From: Reclinomonas americana ATCC 50394
Lineage: Eukaryota
Assembly (NCBI GenBank): GCA_048213135.1
Contig: PS015178.1
Coordinates: forward strand, 1 to 55,188
Reading direction: 5' to 3'
Length of the DNA: 55,188 nt
Position numbers and translations under genes: made by a program. Shown piece after piece: positions 1 through 55,188 of the stretch; the first letter of the stretch is position 1; every line of letters begins with the position of its first letter. Under the pieces are notes generated by a model. The model made no database searches. It was not told where the DNA came from and worked only from the letters and a program-made list of their open reading frames with translations.

Positions 1-1089
1 TACCGCCGCCAACCACATGCATGAACGAATCTGAAGCGCGCGCTCTCACCGAGATCCAACTCCCACAGATCGTCGTACCACACTTCAACAGCGTTGCCGC
101 CGTGCAGATACACCGCGTTGCCCATCTGTTGTGCGACCGCACACAAGGAGAGAGCGAGAGGGAAGGTGAGGAAGTGAGGTGAACGAAATGGCGGTCGCTC
201 TTCTCACGCACGCACACGCCCACATACGAGGTGCGAGTCGTGCTGTCAACAGAGAGAGGAAGGGAGAACGATCAAGAGAACAGAGAGCAGCAGGCATAAA
301 CACACGTGCGAGAGAGGCGATGAGAGCCAGTGCAAGTGGTGTCATCACCAAAGACAACCACACATCAACATCATCACGCACAATCACACGATGCANNNNN
401 NNNNNNNNNNNNNNNNNNNNNNNNNNNNNNNNNNNNNNNNNNNNNNNNNNNNNNNNNNNNNNNNNNNNNNNNNNNNNNNNNNNNNNNNNNNNNNNNNNNN
501 NNNNNNNNNNNNNNNNNNNNNNNNNNNNNNNNNNNNNNNNNNNNNNNNNNNNNNNNNNNNNNNNNNNNNNNNNNNNNNNNNNNNNNNNNNNNNNNNNNNN
601 NNNNNNNNNNNNNNNNNNNNNNNNNNNNNNNNNNNNNNNNNNNNNNNNNNNNNNNNNNNNNNNNNNNNNNNNNNNNNNNNNNNNNNNNNNNNNNNNNNNN
701 NNNNNNNNNNNNNNNNNNNNNNNNNNNNNNNNNNNNNNNNNNNNNNNNNNNNNNNNNNNNNNNNNNNNNNNNNNNNNNNNNNNNNNNNNNNNNNNNNNNN
801 NNNNNNNNNNNNNNNNNNNNNNNNNNNNNNNNNNNNNNNNNNNNNNNNNNNNNNNCACACACAGGCGCGCACGCATACACACACATAGAGCAACACACAG
901 AGGCACGGAGAGAGGGGATACCGTGTGCACAGAGCGTAACGGCCATGACACGCACTTTGACAACACGCACGCAAAGACACACAAGCACAGAACATCGCAC
1001 AGACAAGAATGCGCAACTGTGCAGACGCCCGCGGCCTGGCGCGGCTCAGGCGGCTCGCCATCAAAGTCGCGCGTCTCCCACTGCAACAT
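1..1089 (-). CDS. Kelch-repeat protein, 5' part (continues beyond the window start)
   Basis: Exon 1089-1018 (MLQWETRDFDGEPPEPRQAAGVCT) joins in phase 0 to exon 125-50 (MGNAVYLHGGNAVEVWYDDLWELDL). This gives the Kelch pattern G-x-P-P-x-P-R...hyd-GG...DLWxLD. The intron spans an N gap. Confidence 0.75.
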
Positions 1090-1136
1090 CGATTTTGTGA
1101 CAGTGAGTGGCAGGACAAAACAAATGCACTCTGGCG

Positions 1137-2419: not shown

Positions 2420-2467
<48 letters not shown>

Positions 2468-2694: not shown

Positions 2695-2747
<53 letters not shown>

Positions 2748-7239: not shown

Positions 7240-9420
7240 ATGACAGCAGCTACCGCAGCCACTGTGCCGTTTATGATGCCTCGCACCGGCCGTCACTGGA
7301 GCGCAGCTGAGGACGACGAGATGGTGGCCCTTGTTTCGGTGAGTTTAACAACACGACTGCAATTGCGCAAAGATCTAGAGTTTTGTGAACACACACCAAC
7401 GCCTGCACAAGTAGTGCGCATCGCGAATCGCACATACACGCAGACATGCAGAGAGAGAGAGAGAGAGGCAGAGGTTGACGTACAGTTGAATATGACCTGC
7501 GAGTGTGGTGCGGTAGGAGCGTGCGGAGTGTCCTTCGCTGAGAAGACATGAACCATTTCGAGAAACAGGATCTGCGTGAATCTGGACGTCACTCACACGC
7601 ACTCTTCTGTGCATGCTACACCGCAGCGACTCGGCACAGACAGCTGGCAGCAAGTGGCGAAGCACATGAAGGGCGGACAGCGAACGGCTAAACAATGCCG
7701 AGAGAGGCGAGTATGTTTTGTACAAGTGTGTGTGTGCGTGTTCAGTCGAGAGACTGCATATTCCCTGTTTCATGATCAATTGCGAACGTGCAACTGCAGT
7801 TGGCGACTGAGTACGTGCGGGGTTGCTGATTATTGATGGGCACAATGCAGGTGGGCCAACCATCTCGATCCGCGAGTGATGCGAGGCGTGTGGACGGAGG
7901 CGGAAGACCGGCTGATCTTGCGCGGACAGGCCACTCTGCACAACCAGTGGGCGGCGATTGCCAGCCTCCTGCCAGGGCGCACAGCGAACAATGTGAAGAA
8001 CCGCTGGAACTCTGTGCTGCGCCAGTTGCGTGACGCATGAAAGCAGCTTGTGTACAAGCTGCATACTTATTTTGCAAATTGGTTATTTCTCTCTCACACG
8101 ACCTGCAGAGCGGCCGAGAGCGTACGCGGTTTCACATTGGGAGGAGGGAAAAAAGGCGACCAGCGAGTGGTGATTGTGGAGGGCGAGTTGGTGGACCTCA
8201 TGTTCGGCAAGATCGGAGCTGACGGACGCCGTCAGCAGCGTTGTCAGATGCGGATGCGTGATCGGCCGGTTGTCTGGCACCAGTGCACACCGGACCCCGA
8301 GAGTGGCACACTCAAGACGAAGAGTCAAGATGTCGTCGAAGACATTGGTGCCTCGATTACGTACGGTGAGCGGTGTGTCTGTCCTGTTTTCGAACTCTGT
8401 GCATTTTTTCACCATTGCCGTGCATTCGTGACAGAGACCGACCAGGACCGCAAGCTGCTGGATGAGATCATTGCCATGGTGCATAACCCTCAGCCAAAGC
8501 CAGAGCGTCGCAAGGCAATTGTCATTCACGATCAGTCAGCACTGCTGGCCAGTGGAGGCGGCCGCCTATCACGACGGCGTTCGAGCGATGTACACGTCAG
8601 TGCTGATCATGACCTCTCGATCCCGAACATGGACGACGCGCGCGCCAACGAGACTGACGCCATCGACGTTGACAGCGGCCGTGGCGTTCGTCGACAGTGC
8701 AGACGCAGCCGACCGCAGGAAGGCGAGGCGTCACCGACAACTCGTGGAGACGGAACTTTGATCGTTGATCGCGATATCGATACGGCCGCGGATATCGATG
8801 ATGACGACGATGAGCCGGCTCACAAGCGGCGACGATTGTCACCAGTGGCCTCTCCGCACTCCATAGACACTGACGTCGGAGCGATGGTCGTTTCGCCCGT
8901 GGCCAACGGACGCCACCTGCATGCGCAGCCGCTGCACGTTTCACTTGACGAGACAACAGCGCCGGCGAACTTGCAATTGACCACCGACGTCAACGACAGC
9001 GTGGAATCCATGGAGGACATGTACGCCGCCGTGTTTGCGCCACCATCGTTGACGTGTGTGCAAGAGGCGCGCGCTCTTGCCACTCATTTGCACCACCACC
9101 ACCACACTGGATCCGTTGCCGGGCAGCCTCCTCCTCCTCCACCTCCTGCTGTTGCTACGCCAGTTTCAGACATCGAAGACATGTTGGTGGCCAGCTGGTG
9201 GGCCACTGGCACTGACCAACAACAGCCTTCGACCAAACCGGGCGCTACAGTAGTGGTACTCGATGCCGACGTCCGCCCAGCGTCTCTCGACTATTTCGAC
9301 GTGGTCGACACTGACAGCGGAGCTGACAGCGTGTGGCATCTGTTGCGTCATTGCACCCCTCACAATGCGATCGCTTGCGCAGTGCATGATGACCTGATCA
9401 TCACTGCTCGTGCAGGTTGA
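7240..9420 (+). CDS. Two-repeat (R2R3-type) Myb transcription factor
   Basis: Spliced repeats WSAAEDDEMVALV|SRLGTDSWQQVAKHMKGGQRTAKQCRER|WANHLDP and WTEAEDRLIL...WAAIASLLPGRTANNVKNRWNS, followed by a low-complexity C-terminus. One GC-AG intron (7707-7850) and one GTTGCG intron (8025-8108). Confidence 0.9.
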
Positions 9421-9667: not shown

Positions 9668-10978
9668 CTAGTCGTAGCCCTTGATGCCACCCTTGGCACG
9701 TGCGGCACGTGTACGCGCATGTCGCTCCTCATGGCCTTCGATTTGTGGAGCCAGACGGCCGGCCTGGTAGTCTTCCAGCGTCTGGATGATTTCCTCGCGT
9801 CTGCGCAGCACGATGCCACCGACGTGTTGTGAGTTGGATTATCAGGGCAGCACAACACAACCTCGCACACAACAAAAGACGCAACGTGTTCATCACAAAC
9901 GGCCCGTGCCACACCACTGGCTCGCGGAGCTTCTTGCCGGCGCACAGCAGGATGCGAGCCTCCTCCGTGGCATCCGCAGCATTCTCCACCAGTACCGAGT
10001 CCTCCGCCGTGTCATCCTCCGACTCCTCAAACTCCACACTGTTGTGCAAGTTCACGTCGGTCTTGCCATTCACCCGCACGTTACCGCGGAACACATAAAT
10101 GAGGCCGCCAGAGTCACGAGGCAACGGCTGCGTCAGCGACGCACCGGGCGCCAGTCGGATGTCCAGCACTGCCGAGGAGAAGAAGAGTTTAGAAAAGGTG
10201 AGACGAGTCACGCTTGATGGCACGGTGCACACTCGCACCTGTGATGGGCGTCTTGGTCTCGATCACGGCAGACGAGCCGAGGCACTCCCCAGTAATCACT
10301 CGCGCAATCACACCATCGGCCTCGGCCACCGGAATGCGCTCTGGCGGCACATCCTGGTACCGCGGCTCGCACATCTTTTCCTTGGCCGGCAGGTTGACCC
10401 ACAGCTGGAACCCTCTGCGCGCACGCATTAGCACGGCGAACGAAATACAAGAAAAACTGGCAACAAACGCAACTCCATGGTTCCGCCGTTCTCCATGAGG
10501 TCGTCGAGGGGCATCTCGCTGTGGATGACGCCGCGTCCGGCCGTCATCCACTGCACCCAACCGGCCGACAGCTCGCCGCTGTGACCGGCCGAGTCGCGAT
10601 GCTGCATGCCACCCTGCAGCATAATCGACACTGTCTCCTGCCCGCGATGCGGGTGATCGGGCGCGCCCACGGCCTCACCGGGGCCATATGTCACCGGACC
10701 GAGATGACTGTGAATGCGAGTGAGAACCTACATAGCACAGCAAGGCATCGTCATCATGAGAGGATGACGCAACTCGAGCATCAAGAAGGGATCTGCGCGC
10801 ACACACACACACGGAGAGAGATGAGCGCGCGCGTCGGAGATAGAGAGGCAGGGGGTGGTGGCTCACCAGTGCGCGTGTATGACGAGTTGCGCCCGCCCAT
10901 TGGACGACGCACCAAGAATCCGCCTCCCTCGCGCATCTGAGGTGCCAGCTGGGGGCGAGAAATGCGACGCAGAGCCAT
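9668..10978 (-). CDS. PIR: Pirin family cupin protein
   Basis: Spliced motifs [43 protein letters not shown] and [13 protein letters not shown]; 5 introns. Confidence 0.93.
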
Positions 10979-11603: not shown

Positions 11604-12820
11604 TCATGCGCGGTACAGCCTGATCGGGAAGTTTTCCGTGATTTGATAGCCTGGCGCACCATAGTCAGCGTGTCAGCATGGAAGTAAAGGCAAGCAGCAC
11701 AAACCATCCTCCAGCAACACCACAAGGTTGACCTCGAACTCGACGCGGAACTGCTCCGAGATCAGCGTCGGGCATGTGAACAGGCGCGGGAAGATCATGT
11801 GAATGGGTATGGAGAAGTCGCGGCACACGTCGCCGTCGGCAATCTGAATGTTCTGAATCTCGGTGGCTGCTCGACGACGAGAGTGAGAAACAAATGCGCA
11901 CTCCGTCGCCATCACACAGCTCACCTTCTTTTGCGGTGCCGTCCTCCTGACTCTTGATGGTCTCCACACGCACCAGCTGCACCTCGATGCTCTTAATGAG
12001 GCTCTCCGACTTGCGCACGGTGACGAGGCCGGTGAAGGGTCGCGTGATCTCACACAGCACCGAATCAATGTAGCCGTCGACGGCAAAGTCGGGAATGCGC
12101 GACAGCGAGCTCTTCTTCACATTGCGCAGCGACTCGGGCACAATGCTGAAATCCACTCGCCGCTCCTCCTGCTTGTGCGACCGCAGATGCACCACAAACT
12201 CGGTGCTGCGCTTGACATTGCGCTGCATGAAGCCGCGTTGCATCTCCACCGAGATCACATATCGCACATTGACAAACACGCCGTGATATGTCTCAAACAG
12301 CTCCCTGCCCGCATCCGCCGGCTGCACCAACTCAAACTCAAAGGGCACCTGTGCGGCACCCAGGAGGTGAGCAAGACAAGTGTGAAGCTGCTGCGCGTGC
12401 GTGCGTGCTTGCGGACCTCCCACACGCCCTTTTCGAACTTTCCCGGCGGCACCACCTCGAACTGCACCGAGAACAGCTCCAGCGGCTTCACATTGTTGTA
12501 AAACGCCTCAAAGAGGCCCACAGACTTGGCACTGAGGTCGAGCTTGACACCGCCCTCCGCCGACAATGTGACACCCTGATGCTTCAGCGATGAATCCGTC
12601 GAAATCACCTAAAGGCGGAGGCGGAGGCGGAGAAGAGTGAGTGGTGAGTGAGAGGTTAGTCTTTTCCACAGTGCACGCACCACAAAGCCCGACACCGTGT
12701 CCTGCATCGCGCGTGTGTGAGAATGAGTGAGATTGGCGAGAGGGAGTGACAGCATTCACACGCAACTCCTGGTCGGTATGTGCGATCGGCCTTGCGCAGC
12801 TTGATCTCCACCTCCTTCAT
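11604..12820 (-). CDS. VPS26C: Retriever complex subunit VPS26C (DSCR3)
   Basis: Motifs LSAKSVGLFEAFYNNVKP, LFETYHGVFVNVRY, IKSIEVQLVRVET, ATEIQNIQIADGDVCR, IPIHMIFPRLFTCPT and ITENFPIRLYR. Confidence 0.95.
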
Positions 12821-13097: not shown

Positions 13098-14129
13098 ATG
13101 GGCGAGTGGGTGGAGGAGACGCGATTTTTCGGGGTGCACCCGATTGCGTTGATGGATGATGTGTACAACATGATTCAGGATTATGTGGTGGAGGCGGGTC
13201 GATCGTTGGACGATCATTTGTATGCTGAGATGCGTGTGATTGATAAGGGAGCGACGATTGAGCGTATCAAGCAGGTGAGGGAGTGTCTCTCTGCGTGTGT
13301 GCAAGAGTGAGTGTGTTGCTCATGTGTGTGCGTTGAGTAGACGGTGTCGCGATACATGGAGATCTTGGTCGATCTGCGCGATCGCAACTATGACAAGTTT
13401 GAGATGTACGCACTGCGCAATGTGTTTCGCTTGCCAGAGGCGCTGAGCATCGACACGCTCTCGGCGGTTGCGTGCAGTCACTCGCTCACGCGCATCTATG
13501 GCGGTCACTCACGTGCACGTGCGCGCACACACGCAGGATGTCGATGTCACGTACACGGACGACGATGAGGCCAAGTTGGATGAGGAGATTGAGCGGCTAC
13601 GAGAGGACGTGCGCAACGTTGCGTGGTGCCACTGTGGTAAAGAGAGAGAGTGTGTGTGTCGTGTCTCACGTGGAGCGCAGATGGCATTCTGGCGACGGAA
13701 AGTGCGCAGCGAGTTGGAGAGTCTGCGATTGTCGATTGGTGGTCTCGAGAAGATCCGTGATGCGCTCAGTGAGCTGACATCCACATCGTCGAGAGCACAA
13801 GGTAGGGTGATGCTTCTTGCGAGGGAGGAAAGGATGCTTGGCGTCAACTCAATCGATTGCGACAATCAGTCAATGTGTTGAAAGATCTCATGATCCCGCT
13901 GGCTTCGGCGAGGCAAGAGGCCGGCGTGGCACTGGCGCGTGTCGAATCCGCGCTGACCTCCTTCTGCGACGCCAATCGAATCGAAACCGGTGCAGGTGAG
14001 GAGATAAGAGAGAGAGAAACAGAGAGGGGAAGTCGACGTTTGCGCTGAAGTCGATTCTGTGCAGGAGCGTCAAGAAGCGCAGTGGCCGATGCTGCAATGC
14101 GGTCGGTGCCACATGCGCATGCGCTGTGA
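13098..14129 (+). CDS. MIS12: Kinetochore MIS12 complex subunit Mis12
   Basis: N-terminal ETRFFGVHPIALMDDVYNMIQDY and DRNYDKFEMYALRNVFRLP match the Mis12 signature, followed by a coiled coil. Spliced. Confidence 0.88.
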
Positions 14130-14279
14130 CGAGTACCAGAGGCGGCTGGGGGGCGAAACGAGTTGAGTGGAATGCGGAGGGGGAAAAAGAAGAAAATGTA
14201 AGAAAATCATGATTGTTGGCAGTTGTCGCCGTCCTGTCACGATGTTTTCGTTGTGTTGTTGTTGGTGAGCGAGTGCAAG

Positions 14280-15317
14280 ATGTCGCGTGCCAGCAGCAGC
14301 AGCGTGGCTGGTGTGATCACCGAGTCCATGATATTGCAAGCGAGTGGTGAGATCAGTGTCGACAGTGTGACGTTTCTCCCGTTACGAAACCTCGGTGAGC
14401 GATCGTGATAGTTACACAGTGAAGGAAGACACGCTCATCCCGCGTGATCCCACCCAGGCCTGACCAGCTTGAACGGTGTGGAGGTGTGTGAACGGTGCAC
14501 GGAGCTGGACGCCTCCATGAACCGCGTGTGCGAGATTGGCGCAGTCACCTCACTGGCCGAGCTTCGCGTGTTGCGACTCATTGGCAACCGCGTGAACGAC
14601 CTCAGCGTGCTGGCCAACGTGCCAACCCTCCAGCAGCTGTTCCTCCAGGGCAACGCCATTGCCGACGTGCAGGCGTTGGCACCGCTGAAGCACTGTCACG
14701 GGTTGCAGATGCTCAGTCTGCAGAACTACGATCGCTCCATGCCCAACCCGGTGTGCGAGACCGCCGACTATTGGCGGCAAGTGCGTGCGCTGTTGCCGCA
14801 GGTGCGTGTGCTCGACGGCAAGAGGTTACATATTGAGGTGCGTTTCTCCTCGCAAAGATCCGAGGCAGTGGCAAATGATCCTAAAGCTGGTTGTTTCGTG
14901 CAGTGCATGTCGGAGACAGGCGTCGGCCCTGAGCCCGACATGGAGGCCTCACAGTCGGGCAGCAGCGGTGCCGACGATATCGTCATCCCCAAGACCGCGC
15001 CCTGGCTGACCAGTTGAGTCGCTCTTCTCCACAGCGCAGTCGACAACTGCGACTGACTGACTCCTGTCTCGCGCCTGCAGAGTACGAGTGGAACCCCGAC
15101 AAGCCGCACTTTGACGAGGTCAAGCGCAGCATCAACTCCATCTCCCAGGGCTTCAAGAGTTGCGATGCTGAGGGCACACCAAGCACATGATCTGCCGTCT
15201 CTCTCTCACACATCATTCACAGACGATGTCATTGACTGTCGCAAGCTGCTGGCCAAAGCCGATGAGCTGCTGGCGGGCACCAGTGGAGGAGGAGGCAGCA
15301 GCAGCAGCAGCAAATGA
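14280..15317 (+). CDS. LRRC61: Leucine-rich repeat protein, LRRC61-like
   Basis: ITESMILQASGEISVDSVTFLPLRNLGL, SDS22-type LRRs and the LRRcap NPVC...YWRQVRALLPQVRVLDG resemble LRRC61 as recalled. Confidence 0.75.
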
Positions 15318-17139: not shown

Positions 17140-17755
17140 ATGGCCTTCCGTCTCCCTCTCACTGCACTTGCTGTTGCCTTTGTGCTGGGCATGCTGGCTG
17201 TCGACTTGACCATGGACAGTCACGGTGACGACGTGGCCACACGCGACATTCCTCTTCTCTACTATCGCGGTCACCGCACTGCGCAGTTCCCACACAACAT
17301 CACCATTGTGCTCGTCATTGTGTTTGGCGCGGTCTCGCTCATTGTCAACCTGGTCAAGAAGCGCTCGCTGGTGTTGGACTCGGTGTCGGCGGTGTTCATG
17401 ATGTGAGTGTGTGTGCATGCATGCAAGAAGGTGATGATGCAATGCATGCATTCTGACTCGCATCGCAGTGTTGGACTGTATGGCTTTGTCGGTGTGCTCA
17501 TTCCAGTTGCGCGAGTGCTGTGCACACTCTCTTATAGTCTCGTATGTGTCTCCGCTCATTGTGTGTGCGTGCGTGCAGGCGCAAGAGGCGATCAAGAACC
17601 TGTCGCCTTCCGATCCGTCACTGGCTCCCTTGCTCGTCCTCGTTCAGCAGTGGCACTACATTATGGTCGCCTTGATGGTGCCGGTCATGGGCCTGCAGAT
17701 TGCGTCGCATGCCCTTCCCGCGACCGGTGGCAAGAGCAAGCCGCATGCTCACTGA
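17140..17755 (+). CDS. Small 4-TM membrane protein, possibly SHR3-like ER chaperone
   Basis: Three exons give about 158 aa with four hydrophobic helices and a final GLQ. The SHR3 resemblance rests on topology only. Confidence 0.6.
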
Positions 17756-33398: not shown

Positions 33399-34331
33399 GA
33401 CGCGGGAGAGTGGTCGTTGTGTAGACCACGCACTCGCGCGCGAGTTGCAACTGTGAGCGCAGCGCTTGTGTAAACCACGCGCAGGAGGGGTTTGCGATGG
33501 CAATGCCGGGCAAACCGGCACGTCATCGCTGCGCATTTGTCCCGCCCATCATTTCGTTGTTTTTTTCGACGGAGCATATGTTGCGTGTCTGTGTGGCTCT
33601 GTGTCGGTGTGGAAGAGTGCATGTGCGCGTGTGAAGAAGGAGAGCAGAGAAACGATTGTGCTTTGTGAGTTTGGTGCACATCAGAAGAAAACACGTGTGC
33701 GCATGGCTTGTGTCTGTGTGCCATAGTGCACCACAGCAGCAGAGGTGGATGTTGAGGACAGCGAGCAGGGGAGAAAGAATGCATGTGGGGCATGGTGTAC
33801 ATGTCGTAGACATGCATGTGCATGCCCACGCACTCGCTCACTCACTCACCTCCCNNNNNNNNNNNNNNNNNNNNNNNNNNNNNNNNNNNNNNNNNNNNNN
33901 NNNNNNNNNNNNNNNNNNNNNNNNNNNNNNNNNNNNNNNNNNNNNNNNNNNNNNNNNNNNNNNNNNNNNNNNNNNNNNNNNNNNNNNNNNNNNNNNNNNN
34001 NNNNNNNNNNNNNNNNNNNNNNNNNNNNNNNNNNNNNNNNNNNNNNNNNNNNNNNNNNNNNNNNNNNNNNNNNNNNNNNNNNNNNNNNNNNNNNNNNNNN
34101 NNNNNNNNNNNNNNNNNNNNNNNNNNNNNNNNNNNNNNNNNNNNNNNNNNNNNNNNNNNNNNNNNNNNNNNNNNNNNNNNNNNNNNNNNNNNNNNNNNNN
34201 NNNNNNNNNNNNNNNNNNNNNNNNNNNNNNNNNNNNNNNNNNNNNNNNNNNNNNNNNNNNNNNNNNNNNNNNNNNNNNNNNNNNNNNNNNNNNNNNNNNN
34301 NNNNNNNNTGTCTCCACCACACACAGACCCA

Positions 34332-39422: not shown

Positions 39423-41786
39423 ATGTGTGACGACGCTGAGGAGCTAGTGCCCTTCTCCGCTGCAGTGCAATGTCTGGCGAACGCAGTGGTCAAGCTCGCC
39501 AATGTGATGCGTTCGAGCTCGAGTGCCAATGATCTTCGCGTGGATTCATCGCTTGTGCGTGTGTTGATGGAGTTGGTCAGTCGTGCGCAGCCGTTCCGAG
39601 AGCGCCTGCTGCGCCTGGAACGCACCCTGGCAAAGACCACAGAGCGAGAAAACCATGCTGCGTTCCGCAGCTTGTGGAATCAACTGCATGCAGTGTGTGC
39701 GCGATTCATGCCTGCATTGCTGTCGATCGTGGACGACTTGGAGTACAATCGTTTCTCTGGTTCGCACACCATGCGCGTGTGCGTATACCTGTCGCTGTGT
39801 ATGTGCTCATGAACAGCAAGCAGATGAGCTGGCGGAAGATCTGGAGGCGGCGCTGAAGGAGCTGTACGACTACGTGGACTTCCTGCACGACGACTTCGTG
39901 TGAGTAGAGTGAGAAGAGGCGTTGTTGTGCATGTTGTGGTTTCCTCACCTTGCCATTGTCTCTTCTCTGTGCAGTCGCATCGAGGAGTTCATCCGCGCAG
40001 TGAATGAGTTGCGCACGAGGTTTGCATCGGTGCCAGCCGGAGAACAAGCAGGCAGTCCACAGACGGAGTCAGAGCTGCTGACGAAAAGCTATGCCAAATT
40101 GTTTGTTCCGACGAGTGCGGAGCAGAAAGTGCAGGGCCAGTCTCGTCTCGGCTTTGTTGAGTGCGGTGCACGTGGCGCTTGGTCAGCTCGCAGTGCGAAT
40201 GCTGACAAGGGTGGCGTCACAGATTTCTTTGGAGAAGTGGGGCCAATGGTTGGACGAAGACCAGACGTGGCATGCCGCCAAGTCTCTGGCAGTGCGAGGG
40301 GATTTGAAAGGTGCAGAACGTCGGCTGCTAGACGTGGTCGACGCCATCGATTGTCGCCTGCTCGTCAGCACTTGTGCAGCCATGTGCTATGCCGATACTG
40401 GTGAAGCCGGCGATCGGCAGGCAAGCGCCAGTGTGTCTGATGATATTGATGCGAGCCCGGCAAGCTTGGAAGCCCTTAACAGCAAGCTGGCGCTCTTGCA
40501 GCGTACGCTGCAGCAGAATGAGGGACCGTCGCATGCACAGGTTTCGTTGCTGACAGTCCTTCTTCTTCCTGGATGCCCGCAGAATTGACACGTGCTCCTG
40601 CAGTGGACCGACATCTACAAGGCCATGAGCGAGCAAGCCAGGAGGCTGGCGGTCCCCGCAGGCAGTCAGGATGCAGAGATATCACACCTGCATGCGCTCA
40701 ATTGCCCCATGACGCTGGTGTGCACTGCGCGCAATCCGCTGGCGTTCTTCATGGGTGCGCACCAAGACTGACGCGCCGCTGCGTGTGTATGCGCAGGTCA
40801 CCAGGGGCTTCAGGCGCTTGCGATCGGTTGCAGAGTCGCATCGTAGCGACTGGAAGGTGTTGAAGTCGGCACGCACTGGCGGTTTGCGGTACGCAGAAAC
40901 GCGTGTTTCGCGGCATACATGTGCTTACCGTTCGTATGCACAGGTACATGATCATGAGGCTCAATGCCAGGAGCAGGGAGGCACTACCACCCGTGCTCGA
41001 GGGGGTCCGTGAAACGCCCGGCAGTGTGAGTTTGCCAGGCTCCACGTCATGACCTTGCACTGTTTTTCATCACCAGACGTGGTGGTGCGTCGCAGGTGTT
41101 CAAGCTTGTTTCCTATGATGTGCCACTCTCGGCCACTGCGCTCATCGAGCGTTTCCAGAACCCGATGGTGAACAATTCGTCGCGCATCACCTGCGTTTTG
41201 CGCCGTGCTCACTGTCAGTGCATGCAGCTGTGGGACCTCGGCGTCACCACTACATACAATGTGTTGCAGGAGGGTCCTTTTGGCACGCGCCTCGTGCACT
41301 GGGTGCAGAAAGAGGGGCCAGGCAACTCGTTTCCACACTCGGAATACCTCCTGTACGACTTTTCACTGCGGGAGGAGCGCGAGAGCGCTGTCAGTTGCGC
41401 TCCACCACCACACGTGTCACGTGCATTTGTGTGTTTGCATGCTGCTTGCGCTCACTGTCATCACGTGCGACAGATCCCATGTCGGTGCACTACTGCGCTG
41501 TTAGTGCACCCGACGATGTCGACAAGATGCCCAAGATCAAGCGGAATCGCAGACGGGCCATGCACATGCTGTTTGTCACCGCGGTTGCCACCTCTCTCTC
41601 GTCGTGCAACCTGCGTGTGGTGGTACAGATTGGCGACAGTGGTGAGTTCTGCAGCTTGTGTGCTGCAACTTATCCCGGACACATCAGCTCATGTGCACCT
41701 CCGCAGGTGTGATCTTGCACTCGCGTGCATGCAAGAAGTTCCTGCGCCGAATTGCCGAGAAGATAAATATTACGAAGAGTAATTGA
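39423..41786 (+). CDS. Helical/TPR-like protein with a C-terminal START-like domain (gene B)
   Basis: Starts MCDDAEELVPF downstream of TATATAAAA (39378). Contains WKVLKS, LWD...YNVLQEGPFGTRLVHW...FPHSEYL and CNLRVVVQ. Spliced. Confidence 0.6.
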
Positions 41787-42332: not shown

Positions 42333-43114
42333 ATGAGCGACGAAGATGTGTCTCACCTGAGCGACTCGCAGTGGCGTGAGCGACTGGAGCCGGGAGTGTT
42401 TGCAGTGGTGAGTTCACCACTCTGCATGCATGTGTGTGTGATCGTTGCGTTTGCTAGCTGACACTCCTGTCACTCAGCTGCGACAAAAGTCGACGGAGCG
42501 ACCAGGCACCAGCAAGTACAACAAGTACCACCCGGCCGATGGTGGTGAGTGTGTGAGACTCCGTGTGAGAATGTGATTGTGCTGATCACTGACTGCCTCT
42601 CTCCCCTTTCCAGTGTTCCGCTGCGTCGGCTGTGACACACCACTGTACCAGGCCAACACCAAGTTTGGTGAGTGCGATGTTGCTTGCGAAGCAGGGGCGC
42701 GGACAATGTGACTGACACTGTGTATGCTTGTTGCTGATCGCAGACAGTGGATGTGGCTGGCCGGCGTTCTACGAGGGCATTCCGGGGGCGATCACCGAGA
42801 CCACCGATGAGGACGGCCACCGCACCGAGATCACCTGCACCAAGTGTGGTGGACATGTTTCGTTTGTATTTATAATCAATCGTCTTGCAGCGATAATGAG
42901 CCAAGAAGTCTCACTTGTTTGTTGATGTTGCGTGCTACTGTATACGTAGCTCGGCCATGTCTTCAAGGGCGAGGGATTCGCCACCCCCACGGACGAGCGG
43001 CACTGCGTGAATGGCATTTGCTTGCGCTTCGAGGCCGGACCCAAGTCGGCCGGCACTGAACCCGCTGGTGCCGGCGCATCAGCTGGCGGCAGCGGTAGTG
43101 GCAGCAGTCGCTAA
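42333..43114 (+). CDS. msrB: Peptide methionine-R-sulfoxide reductase (Cys-type, Zn-binding)
   Basis: LSDSQWRERL, TERPGT, FRCVGCDTPLY, KFDSGCGWPAFY, RTEITCTKCGGH|LGHVF and RHCVNG. Confidence 0.96.
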
Positions 43115-43897: not shown

Positions 43898-47196
<3,299 letters not shown>

Positions 47197-47262: not shown

Positions 47263-49959
47263 ATGTTCAGTCGCAGCAGCGCAGGTGGCCTTGCGCCGCG
47301 TGCCGCATCCATGTGGACGCGACTGGCCACCGCCTGGCACGCACGTCCCTTCCACCAACAACACCAACACCAACAACAACAGTTCTTTGCACTTTCGCAT
47401 CGCCAGCACTTTCATCGTCGCTCCCGCCACGACAATGGCAGCCGCAGTGCGAGCAGCGCAGGTGGAGGAGGCAGTGACAACAGTAACAACAACGATGAGG
47501 AAAGTCAGTTGTGGTTGAGTGATAAAAGTGAGAAGCAGTCGCGTTCTCGCACAAAGACGCAGACTGACCAGGGTGAGTGCATCATACGCACGTGTGTATG
47601 TGTGTGTGTCTGGAGTGAGAGAGCGTGTGTGTTGTGCTGACACGTGTATGCGTGCGTTTGAGTAGAGATTGCTGAGGAGGATGCTGTGGATGGGAGTTTG
47701 CTTGTGCATCCTCGTCGTGCGTCTTCGTCTTCGTCGTCGGCGACTCGCCCTGAGTCGAGTGAGGAGAGTGAGGATGATGATGCGGAGGGCGAGGNNNNNN
47801 NNNNNNNNNNNNNNNNNNNNNNNNNNNNNNNNNNNNNNNNNNNNNNNNNNNNNNNNNNNNNNNNNNNNNNNNNNNNNNNNNNNNNNNNNNNNNNNNNNNN
47901 NNNNNNNNNNNNNNNNNNNNNNNNNNNNNNNNNNNNNNNNNNNNNNNNNNNNNNNNNNNNNNNNNNNNNNNNNNNNNNNNNNNNNNNNNNNNNNNNNNNN
48001 NNNNNNNNNNNNNNNNNNNNNNNNNNNNNNNNNNNNNNNNNNNNATGATGATGATGATGATGAGGATGATGAGGATGATGAGGATGATGATGACGATGAG
48101 GACGATGAGGATGATGACACGAATGTGTTTGTGGCGGGCGCGCGTGGCAGCTCGCCGGCCTCCACGTCGAGTGATGCCAGTGCCGGAGGTGAGAGGCACG
48201 GGAGGGGCAGTGTGAGAGCTTGCAGCTCCGGAGGACTCCGATGGAGACAAGAGACAAGAGAGATGATAGAGAGAACGAGAGGCCTTGTGCTGTTGGAGAC
48301 AACTCTGCGTCGTCTGAAATGCATGTCTCGTTGTTGCTGTTGTGCAGCCTTGGTGCATCCGAGTAGTCTGCCGCTGCCGAGCGAGCTGCTGGTGATTCCG
48401 TTGTATCGGCGACCGGTGTTTCCGGGCATTGTGGCGCCGATCTTGCTGCAGGACGATGACTTTGTGCGGCAGTTGACCAGTCTGCGCGATTCCGGTGTCA
48501 AGCATGTGGGTCTTTTCTTGGCCAAGGAGGCGCCGGCGGGGACGCCGGATGCCTCTGGCGCCGCAGCTGGTGCTGCAGCGTCGCCGTCGTCGAGCCCGTC
48601 GGATGCCGCCAAGGCGACCGACAGTACCAAGGCCGGCGACAAGGTGCCTGGCAGTTGTCTCCGTCGTATTGATTGCTTGCTTGCTCATTTCGTCGTGCAG
48701 GACAAGAAACCGGGAAGCAGCAAAGAGGAAGATGTGCAACGGCTGGTCAAGAGCATGGAGCAAGTGCACCACATCGGTGTAATTGCGCGCATTATTCGCA
48801 TCCTGCCGAGCCGATCGGGCGGAGCGCAAGTCATGTTGTCGGGACTGAGTCGTATCGAGGCTGTTGAGGAGGTGAAGAATCGCGATCGACTGACTGTGCG
48901 TGTGCGCCACCTGAAGGTGAGTACGTCCTGCCTGACAGCGTGTGTGTGTGTGTGAGTGCATCTCATTGTTTTGCTCTGCTTGCAGAACAAACCGATTGAC
49001 ACGTCGGACACGGAAGTCAAGGCCTACACTGTGGAGATTGTGAACACGATCAAGGACATTCTCAAGGTGCCTCCTCCAAGCAGAGAAGCGGGAATCTGCA
49101 TGTTCCAGAGCACTAACACGTGCCTCCCCCCGCACAGCTGAACCCCTTCTTCAAGGAGCAGTTGCAGACGTTCCTCGACCAAGTGGACCTGGGCAATCCG
49201 AGCGAGTTGGCCGACCTGGCTGCGGCGCTGACCACAGCCGAGGCTGTCAAGTTGCAGGAAGTGTTGGACGCTGTGGAGTTGCACGACCGTCTGTCCAAGT
49301 CACTGACGCTGATCAAGACCGAGTTGGATCTCAACATGATCCAGCAAAAGATTCAGCGGCAGCTGGAGGACAACATCAGCCAGACGCACCGCCGATACAT
49401 GCTCATGGAGCAGCTGAAGGCCATCAAGAAGGAGCTGGGACTGGAGCGTGAGGACAAGGACACCGTGATCAAGAAGTTCCGCGATCGGCTGGCCGAGCTC
49501 AAGGTGCCGGAGCACGCCAACAAAGTGATTGAGAACGAGATGGTGAGTTGTTGGCACAGCGCAAGGAAATATGTCAGATGCTGATGGTGGTTTCTGTTCT
49601 GCTGTGCCACGTAGAACAAGCTGCAAATGTTGGAGGCGTCGAGCGCCGAGTTCAACATGACGCACAACTACCTCGACTGGCTCACTTCGTTGCCGTGGGG
49701 CATCTACTCCACCGAGAATCTCGACATCAAGCACGCCAAGGGTGAGCGGTGAAGAGGGGAAGGGGGATCAAAGAGAGGGAGAGCGCAGGCAGTAAGCACG
49801 AGCATCATTCTGATCTTCGTTGCTCCATCGTGCTCTGTTTCTCTCGCTCCGCGTCTCTTTACCAGTCTCTCTGTCTCTACCTGAGCCTCTTTGGTAGTCT
49901 CTCTGTCTCTTTGTCTTTCTGTCTTTCGTTCTTTCTGTCTTGTCTGTCGGTGTGTGTGG

Positions 49960-49996
<37 letters not shown>

Positions 49997-52273
49997 CTCT
50001 TCTGTCTTGCTCTGTTCTCCTCTTTTCCTCTGTCCTCTTGCTCCGTTCTTCCTCTTGTCCCCCCTTCTCTCTTTCTCTCTGCTTTGTTGTGTGCTCCTCG
50101 GTTCTTCCCTCCCATGGCCCCCTCGTCTCCTTCTCTCTGCTCAGTTCTGCTCTGTTCTGCCGCTTCACTTCTTTCTCACTCTCTCTTTTCTTCTTATCCT
50201 TTGCTCCATTGTCCTCTTTCCGTCCCCCCCCCCTTCCCTCTCCCTTTCTCTTCCCCTTATCGTGCTCACCTTTCTTGCACAACGCAGCGGTGCTCGAGGA
50301 GGACCACTTTGGCCTGGACGATGTGAAGCAGCGAATCCTGGAGTTTATTGCTGTCGGTGGCCTGCGCGGCACTGTGCAAGGTAAAATCCTGTGCATGGTC
50401 GGACCGCCTGGTGTCGGCAAGACCTCCATTGGCAAGTCGATTGCGCGCTCGTTGGACCGCTCCTTCTACCGCTTCTCGGTTGGCGGCCTCAGTGATGTGG
50501 CTGGTGAGAGCGGAAATAATCGTTCATCTGCACATACAATGATTCTCATTTCTCCTTTGACAGAAATCAAGGGCCACCGACGAACGTACATTGGCGCCAT
50601 GCCCGGCAAGCTGCTGCAGTGCTTGAAGACCACGCAGAAGGCCAACCCGGTCATCATGATTGACGGTCGGTGGAGTATGCGCGCTCACTCTGGACATTCA
50701 GAAGTGACGCTCATGTCCTCCCTGCGCACAGAAATCGACAAGCTTGGTCGTGGATACCAGGGTGACCCGGCGTCGGCACTCCTCGAGGTGCTCGACCCGG
50801 AGCAAAACCACGCATTCCTGGACCACTTCCTTGACGTGCCGTTCGATCTGTCCAAGGTGCTGTTCGTGTGCACCGCCAACTCGCTCGACACCATCTCCAA
50901 GCCGCTGCTCGATCGCATGGAAATCATCCGGCTGAGCGGCTACGTGTTGGAGGAGAAGGTGGCGATCGCCAACCGGTACCTCATCCCGCACGCAGCCACA
51001 GACTCGGGCATCACCATGGTTTGTGTTGAAAAGGGGGCACAGAGGGAAAAGACAATGTGAGTTGCTGAACATGGATTGGTGGCCACAGGAGCAAGTGAAA
51101 ATCACCGACGGAGCCATTGAGGAGCTGTGCAAGTCGTACTGCCGCGAGGCTGGCGTGCGCAATCTGCAAAAGCACATTGAGAAGGTGTTCCGCAAGGCCG
51201 CCTACAAGGTGAGCGTTGGTGTGTGGATAATTTGGAGGAAGTGCACCGCTGAATCCGAGGTGAATGCACCACCAGCTGGCCGCCAAGGAGGTCGAGAATG
51301 TCACGGTGACGCCGGAGAACCTCTCGGACTATGTCGGCAAGCCGGTGTTTACGTCGGATCGCTACTATGCGCGCACTCCTGTTGGCGTCGTTGCGTGCGC
51401 GCTTTCTTCCTGCACGTAAGCATTCGACCTGTCCCTCACCCGTTTCCACACACAGACCATGGGCCTGGCCTGGACGGCGATGGGTGGCAGCACGCTGTAC
51501 ATTGAGACAGTGCTCGAGAAGGCGTACTCGTCGTACAAGAAGCTGACCAAGGCCGCCGAAGCCAAGGATGCCAGCGCCAAGGACGAGGAGCGATCGCTGT
51601 CCGGTGGTCGCCTGAAGGTCACCGGCCAGCTGGCGTCGGTGATGCAGGAGAGCACAGATGTGGCGTACACATACGCCCGCCACTTCTTCTATGAGACGGT
51701 GCTGCCGAATCTGCCGGCGGACAGCGGGGTCGACACGTCGTTCTTTGACCATGTGCGTGTGGGAGAGAAAGGGAGGGAGGGGAAAGCTTGATCCTTCTCA
51801 TCCTTTTCTGTTTGGCAGGCGCGCATCCACCTGCACGTGCCGGAGGGCGCGACACCGAAGGATGGTCCGTCGGCCGGTTGCACGGTGGCCACCTCGATTC
51901 TCTCGCTGGCACTCAACGTGCCGGTGCGCCACAACTTAGCCATGACGGGCGAGATCACGCTGACAGGTATTTGAGTTTGTGCTTGTCTGTGTTCTTCCTC
52001 CTGACTGTCTGACTGACTGACCGCTCACTCGCCACAGGCAAAATCCTCCCGATCGGTGGCGTCAAGGAGAAGACAATCGCAGCAAAGCGCAGCGGCATCA
52101 CGCGTGTGATTCTGCCGGCCGGCAACCGCAGCGACTGGGACGAGATGCCGGAGCACATCAAGAAGGGCATCAAGGTGCACTTTGTCAAGACCTTTGAAGA
52201 CGTCTTCAAGATTGCCTTCCCCACCGTGGCCAGACACGCGCGCAAGACGCACAAGCCCGCCAAGAAGAACTAG
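47263..52273 (+). CDS. LONP1: Mitochondrial Lon protease
   Basis: Arg/Ser-rich presequence, [18 protein letters not shown], Walker [15 protein letters not shown], catalytic PKDGPSAG (Ser) and GGVKEK (Lys); about 14 introns. Confidence 0.96.
49742..50288 (+). repeat. CT-rich low-complexity expanded intron in the Lon gene
   Basis: About 550-nt GTGAGC...GCAG intron made mostly of pyrimidines. Splicing restores HAKAVLEEDH. Confidence 0.8.
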
Positions 52274-52873: not shown

Positions 52874-53323
52874 GCTTGAGAGGAGGGAAGAGACGGAGAG
52901 TCGGTCCTCTGACGTTGCAAATATCAATCGGAAAAACACACCGCGGTCGGTTGCTGGTGGAGGAGGTGTGCGATCGATGGAGGAACAAGTGGTCGTTTAT
53001 GCCCGTGTGCGTGCGAGAGAGAAGAAGAGAAACTGGCGGAGAAAGAGAGAATGCAAATGTCGACGTCGACGTTATTCTCTCTCCTCGCTGCGCACCCAGA
53101 AGGCAATGCAAATGGTGAACATAGAGACACACAAGGAGAAGAGAGAGACAACGTGCACTCGCAGGTGTCACAGCCAGACGACGTTCACGCGCCTTCCAAG
53201 TCGGGCGGACGCACAATTTTGTTATATTTTCGTTGTTGCACCGCGCCACGCACGCACGCACACACACAGTCCACACTCAAGAAAGGACTCACTTACACAC
53301 TTACACACTCGCGCATCATCAAC

Positions 53324-55188
53324 ATGGCAGAACGACTCCGATGGTGTGTCTTGTCTGCATCACTTATATCAGTCACCCGTCTCTCACGCACTTGCTGCTG
53401 TCTCTCTTCCCCTTTTCTCTCTCACACACACAGGTTGGTTCTCGGCGGCACTGGCTTCATTGGCCGGTGAGTCTGTCTGCTTGCTTGCTTGCTTGTGTGT
53501 GTTTTGTGTGTGTGAGGTACACACAATGTCTCACACGCACGCAGCCACCTCGTCAAGTACCTTGTGCGCAACGACTTGGCCTCCAAGATCCGCGTCGTCG
53601 ACAAGATCATGCCCGCACTGGCGTACCTCACTCCCGAGTTTGAGGAGTACTATAACGCGGCTGTTGTCGAGTTCAAGCAGGTGCGTTGTCTCACGCACTC
53701 GCACACAGCAAGAGAGAAGGAGAAGGAGAGAGAGTCTGTATGTGTGCATGTGTGCATCTCACTCTCTCAGAGTGTGCGTGTGCTTGTGCGGGCCCGCTGT
53801 TGTGTGTGGTTGCGGAGAAATGGCCAACTCACTCACACCTTGTCTTCTCTCCCTCCCTCTCCACAGGCCAACCTTGGCAACCCTGGTTGCGTCCCTCTCT
53901 TCCCTCCACACGCCCCTGTGCTGCTTTAACAACAGCAGCAGCAGCAGCATGCAAATGATTGACTTGTTGTTTCTTTTTGGACAAATAACACACAGCTCAT
54001 TTGGCGCGCGCGTTTGACGACCCCGAAGGCACCTTCGACATTGTCGTCAACCTGGCGGCGGAGACCAAGTACGGCCAGGCGGAGGATGTTGCGGCACCAT
54101 TCAAATGTTGATGCATGCACACACATTCGAGTGCTGAATGGCGGCAAAATGCAGGTGTACAAGCAACTCATCCTCGACGTGGCGCTGGCGGTGGCCACCG
54201 AGGCCGTCCGCCGCGGCGGTGTGCGCAAGTTCATTCAAGTGAGCACTGCGCAGATCTACGACTCGTCCAAGGTTCGCTCTTGTTTCATTTTTCTCTGGCT
54301 GGTGAGACAACTGAACTCACTCTGCCGCGTGATCACGAGTAACAGAAGACGAGCACGGAGAGCAGCAAGATCAAGCCGTGGACGCTGCTGGCGCGTTACA
54401 GCCTGGAGGCCGAGGAGGCCCTCCGTGGCATTGCTGGGTGCGCGTGAATCCAAAGTGTGTTTTTCTTCACGTGAGGCGATCTGTGCTGACTGTGTGCTCT
54501 TTGCAGACTGCCGCTGGTGGTCCTGCGACCGGCCATCTGCTATGGCCCGGGCGACCAGAACGGTGTGATGCCGCGCGTCATTTGCGCTGCGTCGTACACC
54601 CAGCTGGGCGAGAAGATGCAGTTCCTGTGGGGCAAGGATCTGCGGTGCGTTCTCTCTGCCTAAGTTTCTCGCCCATCTTAACCCGCTGCTCACTCTCTCC
54701 TTCACTCACTCCAGCATCAACACTGTGCATGTGGCCGACGTGGCGCGTGCCATTCACCACGTGGCCATCACGGCGGCGGCTGGATCCGTGTTCAACCTGT
54801 CCGATGAGGGCGACACGAGTTGCGTCTCCACGAGTTGCTGCGCTGTGTGTTGTTGTTGGTATTCACTGTCTCACGCCCCCCACACACACAACAGACCAGA
54901 AGACCATTGGCAAGATCCTGGAGCGCCTCTTTGGCATCCGCACCGACTACTACGGCTCGATCATGTCGAACTTGGCCAAGCTGAACCTCGAGTCGCTGAC
55001 CGAGGAGGCCAACGACAAGCACATGACGCCGTGGAGTGCGCTGATCAAGGAGTACAACCTCAACACGCCGCTCTCACCGTACCTCGACATTGAGCTGCTG
55101 TACAACAACCCGCTGTCGATTGACGGAGGTGCCATCAAGAGCACCGGATTCAACTATGAGTTCCCGGCAGTTGAGTGGAAGGGGGGAA
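53324..55188 (+). CDS. NAD-dependent epimerase/dehydratase (extended SDR), truncated by the window end
   Basis: LVLGGTGFIGRHLV, IVVNLAAETKYGQ, FIQVSTAQIY, VVLRPAICYGPGD and VHVADVARA. Confidence 0.92.

What the first reader, a model, noticed from the sequence alone, without database searches (positions are those of the whole stretch)
1012..55176. A second major 5' splice-site class: register-shifted A|GTTGCGT donors at 20 or more introns
Seen: reconstructing reading frames places introns starting GTTGCG at + strand 8025, 13467, 13618, 15159, 17506, 41394, 45660, 51390, 53886, 54088, 54819 and - strand 1017, 9885, 10473, 10773, 12766, 19976, 21541, 22758, 36827. The introns at 19976 and 22758 are in-frame and so less certain. 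Relatives are GTTGAGT (15013, 32098, 55170), GTTACG (32913) and GTTTCG (16138, 40541, 42857). By hand count over the 20 sites, the -1 base is A in 12 and G in only 3, and +7 is T in 15. Ordinary GTGAG/GTGCG donors here mostly follow G. So A|GTTGCGT reads as AG|GTGCGT displaced by one nucleotide. Conserved motifs fix the cut at GT (pirin DPFLMLD|H and ME|GFQLW; MsrB CGGH|LGHVF). Known: rare human /GUUAAGU donors are read by U1 pairing in a shifted register (Roca and Krainer 2009). Inference: this lineage uses such donors routinely, through shifted U1 pairing, a variant U1/U6 snRNA or altered splicing factors. The normally critical +5 G is C here.
Basis: partly seen in the sequence, partly recalled or inferred. 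Interest (0 to 1): 0.9.

Follow-up and report, generated by a model that had tools for sequence, protein, structure and literature searches.

The report
Second intron-start motif: A|GTTGCGT
In this stretch of an unidentified GC-rich microbial eukaryote, about one short intron in six starts with the rigid motif GTTGCG(T) instead of the usual GTGAGT/GTGCGT. Its flanks look like the usual motif moved by one base, which would make a mode of splice-site reading that is rare in humans routine here.

Summary

- **Donor support.** My self-trained gene model recovers 16 of the 20 as intron starts. Eight of these are also the best-scoring junction against homologous proteins: pirin 3, an epimerase-like SDR gene 3, Lon 1, VPS26C 1. 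Four sites (45660, 1017, 22758, 36827) have no support.
- **Frequency.** GTTGCG is the commonest donor hexamer, 17 of 140 modelled introns against about 0.8 expected from independent positions. It is 8 of 28 among homology-anchored introns.
- **Covariation.** The predicted pattern is present. Anchored ordinary donors follow G in 18/20 and never A; anchored GTTGCG donors follow A in 4/8 and G in 1/8. Among +3T donors, -1A goes with +6G/+7T and not with +5G.
- **Not mobile, not U12-type.** The introns share no other sequence, so they are not introner copies, and they lack U12-type signals.
- **Mechanism.** It is not settled. Shifted pairing to a standard U1 gives more pairs but a weak duplex, and it does not explain the strict +5 C. 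A dedicated U1 variant is a live rival.

There was no RNA data, no genome and no snRNA gene. I found no published description.

The parts
10708..10773 (-). 66-nt intron, donor cga|GTTGCGTC, in the pirin gene (DPFLMLD|HLGPV)
   Evidence: Top junction against 6 pirin homologs. Only a GT-AG cut gives the conserved D.
10415..10473 (-). 59-nt intron, donor gga|GTTGCGTT, pirin (GGTME|GFQLW)
   Evidence: Top junction, 1752 against 1686 for the next candidate.
9801..9885 (-). 85-nt intron, donor cac|GTTGCGTC, pirin (GPFVMNT|REEI)
   Evidence: tblastn HSP ends; top junction.
12702..12766 (-). 65-nt intron, donor gga|GTTGCGTG, VPS26C/DSCR3-like gene
   Evidence: Top junction against 10 homologs, 714 against 604.
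51390..51455 (+). 66-nt intron, donor gtc|GTTGCGTG, mitochondrial Lon protease gene
   Evidence: Top junction against 10 Lon homologs, 1793 against 1737.
53886..53995 (+). 110-nt intron, donor ctg|GTTGCGTC, NAD-dependent epimerase-like (SDR) gene
   Evidence: Top junction against 12 homologs.
54088..54154 (+). 67-nt intron, donor gat|GTTGCGGC, SDR gene
   Evidence: Top junction.
54819..54894 (+). 76-nt intron, donor cga|GTTGCGTC, SDR gene
   Evidence: Top junction.
8025..8108 (+). 84-nt intron, donor cca|GTTGCGTG, directly after a complete Myb domain exon
   Evidence: Gene model only. Myb profile 1-46/46 ends at the exon end.
13467..13536 (+). 70-nt intron, donor gcg|GTTGCGTG, Mis12-like gene
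   Evidence: Gene model and strict subset. Gene identity from Pfam Mis12.
13618..13680 (+). 63-nt intron, donor aac|GTTGCGTG, Mis12-like gene
   Evidence: Gene model only.
15159..15222 (+). 64-nt intron, donor aga|GTTGCGAT, tail of an LRR gene
   Evidence: Gene model and strict subset.
17506..17578 (+). 73-nt intron, donor cca|GTTGCGCG, small membrane-protein gene
   Evidence: Gene model and strict subset.
41394..41473 (+). 80-nt intron, donor tca|GTTGCGCT, gene of unknown family
   Evidence: Gene model only.
21472..21541 (-). 70-nt intron, donor tga|GTTGCGTG, Mem_trans (auxin-efflux-carrier-like) gene
   Evidence: Gene model only.
19908..19976 (-). 69-nt candidate intron, donor att|GTTGCGTG; in frame, no stop, coding-like third positions
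   Evidence: Gene model; sequence. It could equally be exon.
15013..15080 (+). Relative: 68-nt intron, donor cca|GTTGAGTC
   Evidence: Gene model and strict subset.
32037..32098 (-). Relative: 62-nt intron, donor cga|GTTGAGTG, EXO1-like gene
   Evidence: Gene model.
42857..42949 (+). Relative: 93-nt intron, donor cat|GTTTCGTT, MsrB gene (CGGH|LGHVF)
   Evidence: Pfam SelR profile 50-88 ends at the last residue of the upstream exon; 89-115 starts at the first residue of the next.
48917..52037 (+). Comparison set: 10 ordinary Lon introns anchored by homology (GTGAGT x2, GTGAGC x2, GTGAGA, GTGCGT, GTGCCT, GTCGGT, GTTTGT, GTATTT); 9 of the 10 follow G

Best explanation
GTTGCG(T) marks genuine U2-type GT-AG introns. 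They are 59-110 nt long, carry a CTCAC/CTAAT-like branch motif and end in CAG. They form a discrete, rigid second 5' splice-site class beside the degenerate ordinary class G|GTG(A/C)G(T/C).

The class consensus A|GTTGCGT equals the ordinary AG|GTGCGT with the first intron G replaced by T and the cut moved one base upstream.

Most likely mechanism (inferred): U1 snRNP docks one nucleotide out of register, pairing -1A:U10, +1G:C9, +3U:A7, +4G:U6 (wobble), +6G:C4 and +7U:A3. The chemistry is then set at the only available GU by U6/U5. This is the human 'shifted register', but here it is used at roughly 12-29% of introns.

Shown here: the introns exist, the cut is at GT, the class is discrete and frequent, and its flanks covary as the shift predicts.

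Inferred: which snRNA or factor reads it.
For: - Junctions. Eight GTTGCG donors are the best of all GT/GC..AG pairs within +/-36 nt when the spliced peptide is scored against 6-12 homologs.
- Frequency. 17/140 modelled, 6/35 strict and 8/28 homology-anchored introns. Expected under position independence: about 0.8 of 140 and 0.39 of 35. The reversed-sequence control shows no motif.
- Covariation at -1. Anchored set: GTTGCG A4 C2 G1 T1, others G18 T2 of 20 (Fisher p = 0.003 for A, 0.0002 for G). Modelled +3T donors: +6G/+7T gives -1 A 11/22, +5G gives -1 A 1/13, non-+3T gives A 2/93.
- Donor copies differ from other copies. GTTGCG at donors has -1A in 9/17 and +7T in 13/17. Non-donor copies have 9/44 and 14/44 (p = 0.026 and 0.003).
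- Pair counts with the U1 5' end printed in PMC4856993 (passage). GTTGCG donors: 6.5 pairs shifted against 4.6 canonical, shifted better in 7/8. Ordinary donors: 4.85 against 7.4, shifted better in 2/20.
Against: - Nearest-neighbour duplex energies with a standard U1 are weak for all 20 sites (+0.5 to -5.5 kcal/mol). The +1 register alone is the minimum-energy one at only 5 of 20, with 1 tie. The shifted helix is three 2-bp blocks split by two mismatches.
- +5 is C at every class member by definition. The A variant (GTTGAG), which should pair better with U1, is 2 against 17. In the ordinary class A:C is 24:17 (p = 0.0006).
- -2 shows no C preference.
- GTTGCG also lies unspliced in modelled sense exons 21 times.
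- There are no reads and no snRNA genes. It is one 55-kb window, and the organism is unknown.
Confidence: 0.42

Rival explanations
1. A dedicated variant U1 (or U1-like) snRNA with a 5' end complementary to A|GUUGCGU reads this class. A standard U1 reads the ordinary class, so two U1 types serve two donor classes in one genome.
For: - The class is rigid. The exact hexamer occurs 17 times, while one-off variants in the model (GTTGAG 2, GTTGGG 1, GTTACG 1, GTTTCG 3) total 7. The ordinary class is degenerate.
- This rival explains the strict +5 C, the +7 T and the -1 A together. Shifted pairing to a standard U1 does not explain the +5 C.
- Precedent: Entamoeba GUUUGU with U1 ACAAAC, Mastigamoeba U1 ACGUAC, and both standard and modified U1 reported for Physarum (preprint 10.1101/2022.06.08.495308, passages).
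Against: No snRNA gene is in the window and no genome is held, so there is no direct evidence. The one-base-shift likeness to the ordinary motif would then be a coincidence, or a trace of how the variant arose.
Confidence: 0.22
2. A standard U1 pairs in the canonical register with the +3 U bulged out (bulge register): G1:C8, U2:A7, then G4, G6 and U7 as in GTGCGT.
For: Bulged registers are validated in human (PMC4856993, passages). Pairing downstream of the bulge is the same as in the shifted model.
Against: A bulge register keeps -1 opposite C9, so -1 G should stay favoured as in ordinary donors (18/20). It is G in only 1/8 anchored, 2/17 modelled and 3/20 listed GTTGCG donors, and A dominates.
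Confidence: 0.1
3. The motif is a historical mark rather than a recognition class. On this view it is either the conserved 5' end of an old burst of inserted introns (introner-like), or the product of repeated G(+1)>T mutation of AG|GTGCGT donors with one-base intron sliding.
For: The motif equals the ordinary donor with one substitution. Such introns cluster by gene: pirin 3/5, SDR 3/7, Lon 1/11.
Against: - All-against-all blastn of the 140 modelled introns gave 13 pairs after removing simple repeats. All are 13-21 nt low-complexity matches, and none is between two GTTGCG introns.
- One-base sliding needs a compensating one-base change at the acceptor each time.
- Donor-specific -1A and +7T point to present-day selection on recognition.
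Confidence: 0.1
4. Gene-model artefact: the true donors are neighbouring GT or GC sites, for example the GC at +4/+5 giving a GC-AG intron that is one codon shorter.
For: At 7 of the 8 anchored sites the runner-up is the GC-AG intron starting 3 nt downstream (54819 is the exception). Score margins are modest, 56-111 summed over 6-12 homologs.
Against: That alternative loses at all 8 sites, because every homolog set lacks the extra residue. It would also have no consensus around the GC. The motif emerged from a model with no donor prior and not from the reversed control.
Confidence: 0.05

Closest known systems
Shifted-register 5' splice sites in human (Roca & Krainer 2009, recalled and cited within PMC4856993; Tan et al. 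2016, PMC4856993, passages read)
   Same: GU is cut, but the surrounding bases pair with the U1 5' end one position out of register. -1 A and a G-U two bases later than usual are the hallmarks. The printed example is ACA|GUCAAGUAU.
   Different: In human, all validated non-canonical registers together are about 1.5% of 5' splice sites, and the shifted helix is continuous after one mismatch. Here one rigid motif is 12-29% of introns in the window. Its shifted helix carries a second obligatory mismatch (+5 C) and is predicted to be weak.
Lineage-specific donor motifs with co-evolved U1 (Entamoeba GUUUGU(U) with U1 ACAAAC; Mastigamoeba U1 ACGUAC; preprint 10.1101/2022.06.08.495308, passages read)
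   Same: +3 U donors and a +7 U preference. This shows that the U1 pairing region can change.
   Different: There a single motif replaces the standard one genome-wide, in 88-90% of introns. Here two classes coexist within the same genes, and no U1 sequence is available.
Rigid GTGCG(T/C) donors of Mamiellales and the +4 C preference of Thecamonas with a standard U1 (Irimia & Roy 2008, PMC2483917, search listing only; same preprint)
   Same: GC-rich protists with short introns tolerate C opposite U1 position 5. The ordinary class here includes GTGCGT.
   Different: Those lineages have one class in the canonical register. No displaced A|GTTGCGT class is described in the passages I read.
U12-type (minor spliceosome) introns
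   Same: A second, rigid 5' splice-site class coexisting with a degenerate major class in the same genes.
   Different: From recall, the U12-type donor is /RTATCCTT with a TCCTTRAY branch site. Here the donor is GTTGCGT and the branch motif is CTCAC-like, as in the ordinary introns.

Membership tests
U2-type GT-AG spliceosomal introns | GT...AG termini whose removal restores the reading frame and the alignment to homologs | tested here: met
   8 of 8 GTTGCG junctions tested against homologs are the top-scoring junction. 10773 excludes a one-base-shifted non-GT cut.
U2-type GT-AG spliceosomal introns | Branch-site-like YTNAY motif shortly upstream of a YAG acceptor | tested here: met
   7 of 8 anchored GTTGCG introns have CTCAC, CTAAT or TTGAC 13-33 nt from the 3' end (54088 has none). 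All 8 end in CAG.
U2-type GT-AG spliceosomal introns | Spliced transcripts | not testable with these tools
   No RNA run was listed.
Shifted-register (+1) U1 recognition | More base pairs to the U1 5' end in the +1 register than in the canonical register | tested here: inconclusive
   Pair count: met in 7/8 (6.5 against 4.6). Minimum-energy duplex: +1 register alone at only 5/20 sites, and all duplexes are weak.
Shifted-register (+1) U1 recognition | Flank covariation: -1 behaves like ordinary -2 (A), and +6/+7 like ordinary +5/+6 (G, T) | tested here: met
Shifted-register (+1) U1 recognition | The organism's U1 has the standard 5' end; suppressor-U1 rescue works in the shifted register | not testable with these tools
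   No U1 in the window; no genome held.
U12-type introns | /RTATCCTT donor and TCCTTRAY branch site (recalled consensus) | tested here: not met
   Donor is GTTGCGT; branch motifs are CTCAC-like.
Introner elements (mobile introns) | Sequence similarity along the intron between copies | tested here: not met
   No non-repeat match between any two GTTGCG introns among the 140 introns compared. This covers the window only.
GC-AG introns | Intron starts at the GC (+4/+5 of the motif) | tested here: not met
   This alternative scores below the GT start at 8 of 8 anchored sites.

The most novel reading that the evidence does not exclude
This lineage runs two parallel U1-type recognition systems on GT-AG introns. 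A standard U1 reads G|GTG(A/C)GT, and a second U1-like snRNA with a 5' end complementary to A|GUUGCGU reads a rigid class that makes up a sixth or more of all introns. That would be a 'third intron class' sharing the branch site, acceptor and catalytic core of the major spliceosome.
Probability: 0.2. Interest if true: 0.9.

Novelty: new variant of a known kind. Interest (0 to 1): 0.62.

Why it matters
Non-canonical U1 registers are known in human as rare exceptions that cause mis-prediction of splice mutations.

A free-living eukaryote that uses one such out-of-register motif at 12-29% of its introns would be a natural system for several questions:
- how U1 docking is uncoupled from the choice of the cleaved bond;
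- how far the 'critical' +5 G can be dispensed with;
- whether snRNA variants split the intron population into classes.

There is also a practical side. Gene finders trained on a single donor matrix will mis-call these junctions in this genome. My own first pass did so: it placed the pirin donor at 10468 instead of 10473.

Tried and rejected
- **Whole genome.** None is held, so there was no U1/U5/U6 search. Rfam on the window found only tRNA-Sec, at both the gathering and E<=1 thresholds.
- **Organism identity.** Best protein hits are 65-82% identical (pirin, Lon, VPS26C, SDR). No protein identical to the window's appeared. Cluster look-up of six top hits gave no organism names. A PDB search with a uS5 exon did not separate lineages. 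Earlier-findings look-ups by place and by sequence were empty.
- **First gene-model passes without splice matrices.** They were too noisy to use.
- **Junctions not confirmed by homology.** 2 of 12 modelled Lon introns (48189, 48644; low-complexity N-terminus); 1 of 5 VPS26C (11704); 2 of 10 SDR (53681, 53780; probably one longer intron). I also dropped 53346 because its upstream exon has only 5 coding bases.
- **Pfam on short exons** of the Mem_trans, Mis12 and unknown genes gave no junction information. Myb and XPG hits did not reach the junctions.
- **PDB search on a whole-gene frame** was rejected because the translation held stop codons, so I used single exons afterwards.
- **Introner reading:** rejected. 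**U12-type reading:** rejected on motif.
- **Possible 5'/3' end pairing.** UUGCG is complementary to the CGCAG acceptor. CGCAG ends 6/17 GTTGCG introns against 15/123 others (p = 0.023). This is weak and I did not pursue it.
- **Literature.**
  - Whole-word GTTGCG, GUUGCG, GTTGCGT, GUUGCGU: 17 papers, 16 listed, none on splicing by title or abstract start.
  - 'shifted register' + 'U1 snRNA' + 'splice site': 8 papers, on human or tunicates.
  - Two broader term sets gave no description of such a class.
  - Roca & Krainer 2009 is not held.
  - Sequence logos in figures and supplementary files of genome papers cannot be searched, so an earlier depiction cannot be excluded.
Full report
**1. What the window is**

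The window is 55,188 bases with eight N gaps. It is 58.5% G+C outside the gaps. It is nuclear DNA of an intron-dense eukaryote. Coding exons have third-position G+C near 0.8. Introns are sharply short: the median is 70 nt, and 90 of the 140 modelled introns are 60-74 nt.

Genes recognised by homology or Pfam:

| Gene | Strand and position |
|---|---|
| Pirin | -, about 10990-9668 |
| VPS26C/DSCR3-like | -, 12820-11600 |
| Mis12-like, then an LRR gene | +, 13098-15317 |
| Mitochondrial carrier | +, 15787-17043 |
| Mem_trans carrier | -, 21738 to about 19870 |
| EXO1-like | -, 33078-29934 |
| Ribosomal protein uS5 | +, 34309-35694 |
| MsrB | +, 42333-43114 |
| Mitochondrial Lon protease | +, 48045-52273 |
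| MAPEG-like (judged from the model translation only) | -, 52873-52322 |
| Epimerase-like SDR | +, 53341 to the window end |

I could not name the organism. The best protein hits are 65-82% identical and come from scattered protists, fungi, sponges and bacteria. No protein identical to the window's own appears in the 5.8-billion-protein collection.

**2. The observation**

GTTGCG is not enriched in the window overall: 65 copies against 55.5 +/- 7. It also sits 21 times in modelled sense exons. The claim therefore rests entirely on whether these copies are intron starts.

**3. An intron catalogue made without a donor prior**

No reads and no genome were available. I wrote a small Viterbi gene finder with:
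- a 3-periodic second-order coding model;
- GT..AG introns of 40-160 nt;
- both strands modelled separately.

I trained it on the window itself. Donor, acceptor and length scores were learned only from its own earlier output.

It settles on 140 introns in genes scoring above 25. GTTGCG is the commonest donor hexamer:

| Donor hexamer | Count of 140 |
|---|---|
| GTTGCG | 17 |
| GTGAGT | 12 |
| GTGCGT | 11 |
| GTGTGT | 11 |

From the model's own position frequencies (+3T 47, +4G 30, +5C 36, +6G 43 of 140), about 0.8 GTTGCG are expected.

Further checks:
- A strict subset has 6 GTTGCG of 35 (expected 0.39; p = 2e-6). The subset required both flanks coding, retention disruptive and length 50-120 nt.
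- The same pipeline on the reversed window gives 7 'genes', 19 'introns' and no hexamer seen more than twice.
- It does not contain 45660, 1017, 22758 or 36827. At 45660 the upstream frame is coding, but no acceptor within 200 nt opens a coding frame. At the other three the upstream coding scores are negative.
- 19976 is in frame, has no stop and looks coding. It stays doubtful.

**4. Homology anchoring**

For five genes I enumerated every GT or GC donor and every AG acceptor within +/-36 nt of the modelled junction. I spliced each pair and scored the peptide against 6-12 homologs.

| Gene | Model junctions that score best |
|---|---|
| Lon | 10 of 12, plus a 546-nt intron 49742-50287 that the model missed |
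| VPS26C | 4 of 5 |
| Pirin | 4 of 4, plus a first intron 10866-10793 |
| SDR | 8 of 10 (I dropped 53346 because its upstream exon is too short) |
| MsrB | 42857, anchored by Pfam SelR profile continuity 88\|89 |

This gives 28 anchored introns:

| Donor type | Count of 28 |
|---|---|
| GTTGCG | 8 |
| GTGAG(T/C/A) | 8 |
| GTGCG | 5 |
| Others (GTGCCT, GTCGGT, GTTTGT, GTATTT, GTCCGC, GTTCGC, GTTTCG) | 7 |

At 7 of the 8 GTTGCG sites the runner-up is the GC-AG intron starting 3 nt downstream (54819 is the exception). That alternative loses at all 8 sites because the homologs lack the extra residue. At 10773 a cut one base later, with a compensating acceptor shift, would turn the conserved D of DPFLMLD|H into E. 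The bond cut is therefore A|GT.

**5. Is it a class, and does it look displaced?**

In the anchored set:

| Position | Ordinary donors (n = 20) | GTTGCG donors (n = 8) |
|---|---|---|
| -2 | A 10 | not informative |
| -1 | G 18, T 2, A 0 | A 4, C 2, G 1, T 1 |
| +3 | G 14 | T 8 |
| +4 | A 8, C 8 | G 8 |
| +5 | G 17 | C 8 |
| +6 | T 10, C 7 | G 8 |
| +7 | G 10, T 5 | T 7 |

Fisher tests on -1 give p = 0.003 for A and 0.0002 for G. Read one base to the right, the second motif reproduces the first at seven of eight positions.

| Modelled donors | n | -1 base |
|---|---|---|
| +3T with +6G/+7T | 22 | A 11, G 3 |
| +3T with +5G | 13 | G 9, A 1 |
| Not +3T | 93 | G 67, A 2 |

The signal that is read is therefore the longer A|GTTGCGT.

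The class is also rigid. The exact hexamer occurs 17 times, against 7 one-off variants in the model.

**6. What it is not**

- **Not mobile-intron copies.** The introns share nothing beyond the start, a CTCAC/CTAAT-like branch motif and CAG. All-against-all blastn of the 140 introns leaves 13 short low-complexity pairs, none between two GTTGCG introns.
- **Not U12-type.** The donor and branch motifs are wrong (the U12 consensus is from recall).
- Length, branch motif and acceptor are like those of ordinary introns.

**7. Mechanism**

I used the standard U1 5' end as printed in Tan et al. 2016. By pair count, the +1 register gives GTTGCG donors 6.5 pairs against 4.6 canonical, and it is better in 7/8. 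Ordinary donors behave the other way: 4.85 against 7.4, shifted better in 2/20.

The loss of -1 G argues against the alternative bulged-U register, which keeps -1 opposite C9.

Two results go against a simple shift on a standard U1:
- The shifted helix is three 2-bp blocks separated by two mismatches. RNAduplex finds all 20 duplexes weak (+0.5 to -5.5 kcal/mol). The +1 register alone is the optimum at only 5 of 20 sites.
- +5 C is a mismatch in that register, and A would pair. Yet GTTGAG is 2 against GTTGCG 17, while the ordinary class has GTGAG 24 against GTGCG 17 (p = 0.0006).

A U1 variant complementary to AGUUGCGU would explain every conserved position. There is precedent for altered U1 pairing regions in Entamoeba and Mastigamoeba, and for mixed U1 types in Physarum (preprint passages). 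No snRNA gene is in the window.

My estimates are 0.42 for shifted pairing and 0.22 for a dedicated variant. The remainder goes to the bulge register, a historical origin and artefact.

**8. Comparison with what is known, and novelty**

Human shifted and bulged registers are documented. Together they cover about 1.5% of 5' splice sites (PMC4856993, passages). Lineage-wide altered donors are known, but they occur as a single class per genome (PMC2483917, listing only).

I found no paper describing a coexisting A|GTTGCGT class. Figures and supplements cannot be searched, and the organism is unknown, so an earlier depiction cannot be excluded.

I file this as a new variant of a known kind.

**9. 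Verdict**

- The displaced-motif reading is supported by covariation.
- The agent that reads the motif is undetermined.
- Interest is 0.62. This is held down by the single window and by the lack of RNA and snRNA data.

Noticed in passing
window 21852-21937 (-): A selenocysteine tRNA gene (Rfam tRNA-Sec, 72.3 bits, E = 6e-13) lies just upstream of the Mem_trans carrier gene. The organism therefore uses selenocysteine.
   Followed up: no
window 49742-50287 (+) and about 35087-35388 (+): Two introns are far longer than the 70-nt norm. One is a 546-nt intron in Lon, anchored by homology. Their content was not examined.
   Followed up: partly
Lon gene, window 49067, 50666, 51967 (+): Homology-anchored donors as degenerate as GTGCCT, GTCGGT and GTATTT are used. 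The ordinary 5' splice site is therefore weakly constrained beyond -1 G and GT. This contrasts with the rigid GTTGCGT class.
   Followed up: partly
3' ends of the GTTGCG introns (e.g. 10415, 13680, 9801, 21472): CGCAG, which is complementary to the UUGCG of the donor, ends 6 of 17 GTTGCG introns against 15 of 123 others (p = 0.023). This is a possible 5'/3' end pairing, or chance.
   Followed up: partly
window-wide: (GT)n/(CA)n and (CT)n microsatellites are very common in introns and spacers. GTGTGT occurs 313 times, 130 of them inside modelled introns. They create spurious GTGTGT 'donors' in gene models.
   Followed up: no
window 53681-53866 (+): The model splits this stretch into two introns around a 9-nt micro-exon, and homologs do not support that. 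It is probably one intron of about 186 nt starting cag|GTGCGT.
   Followed up: no
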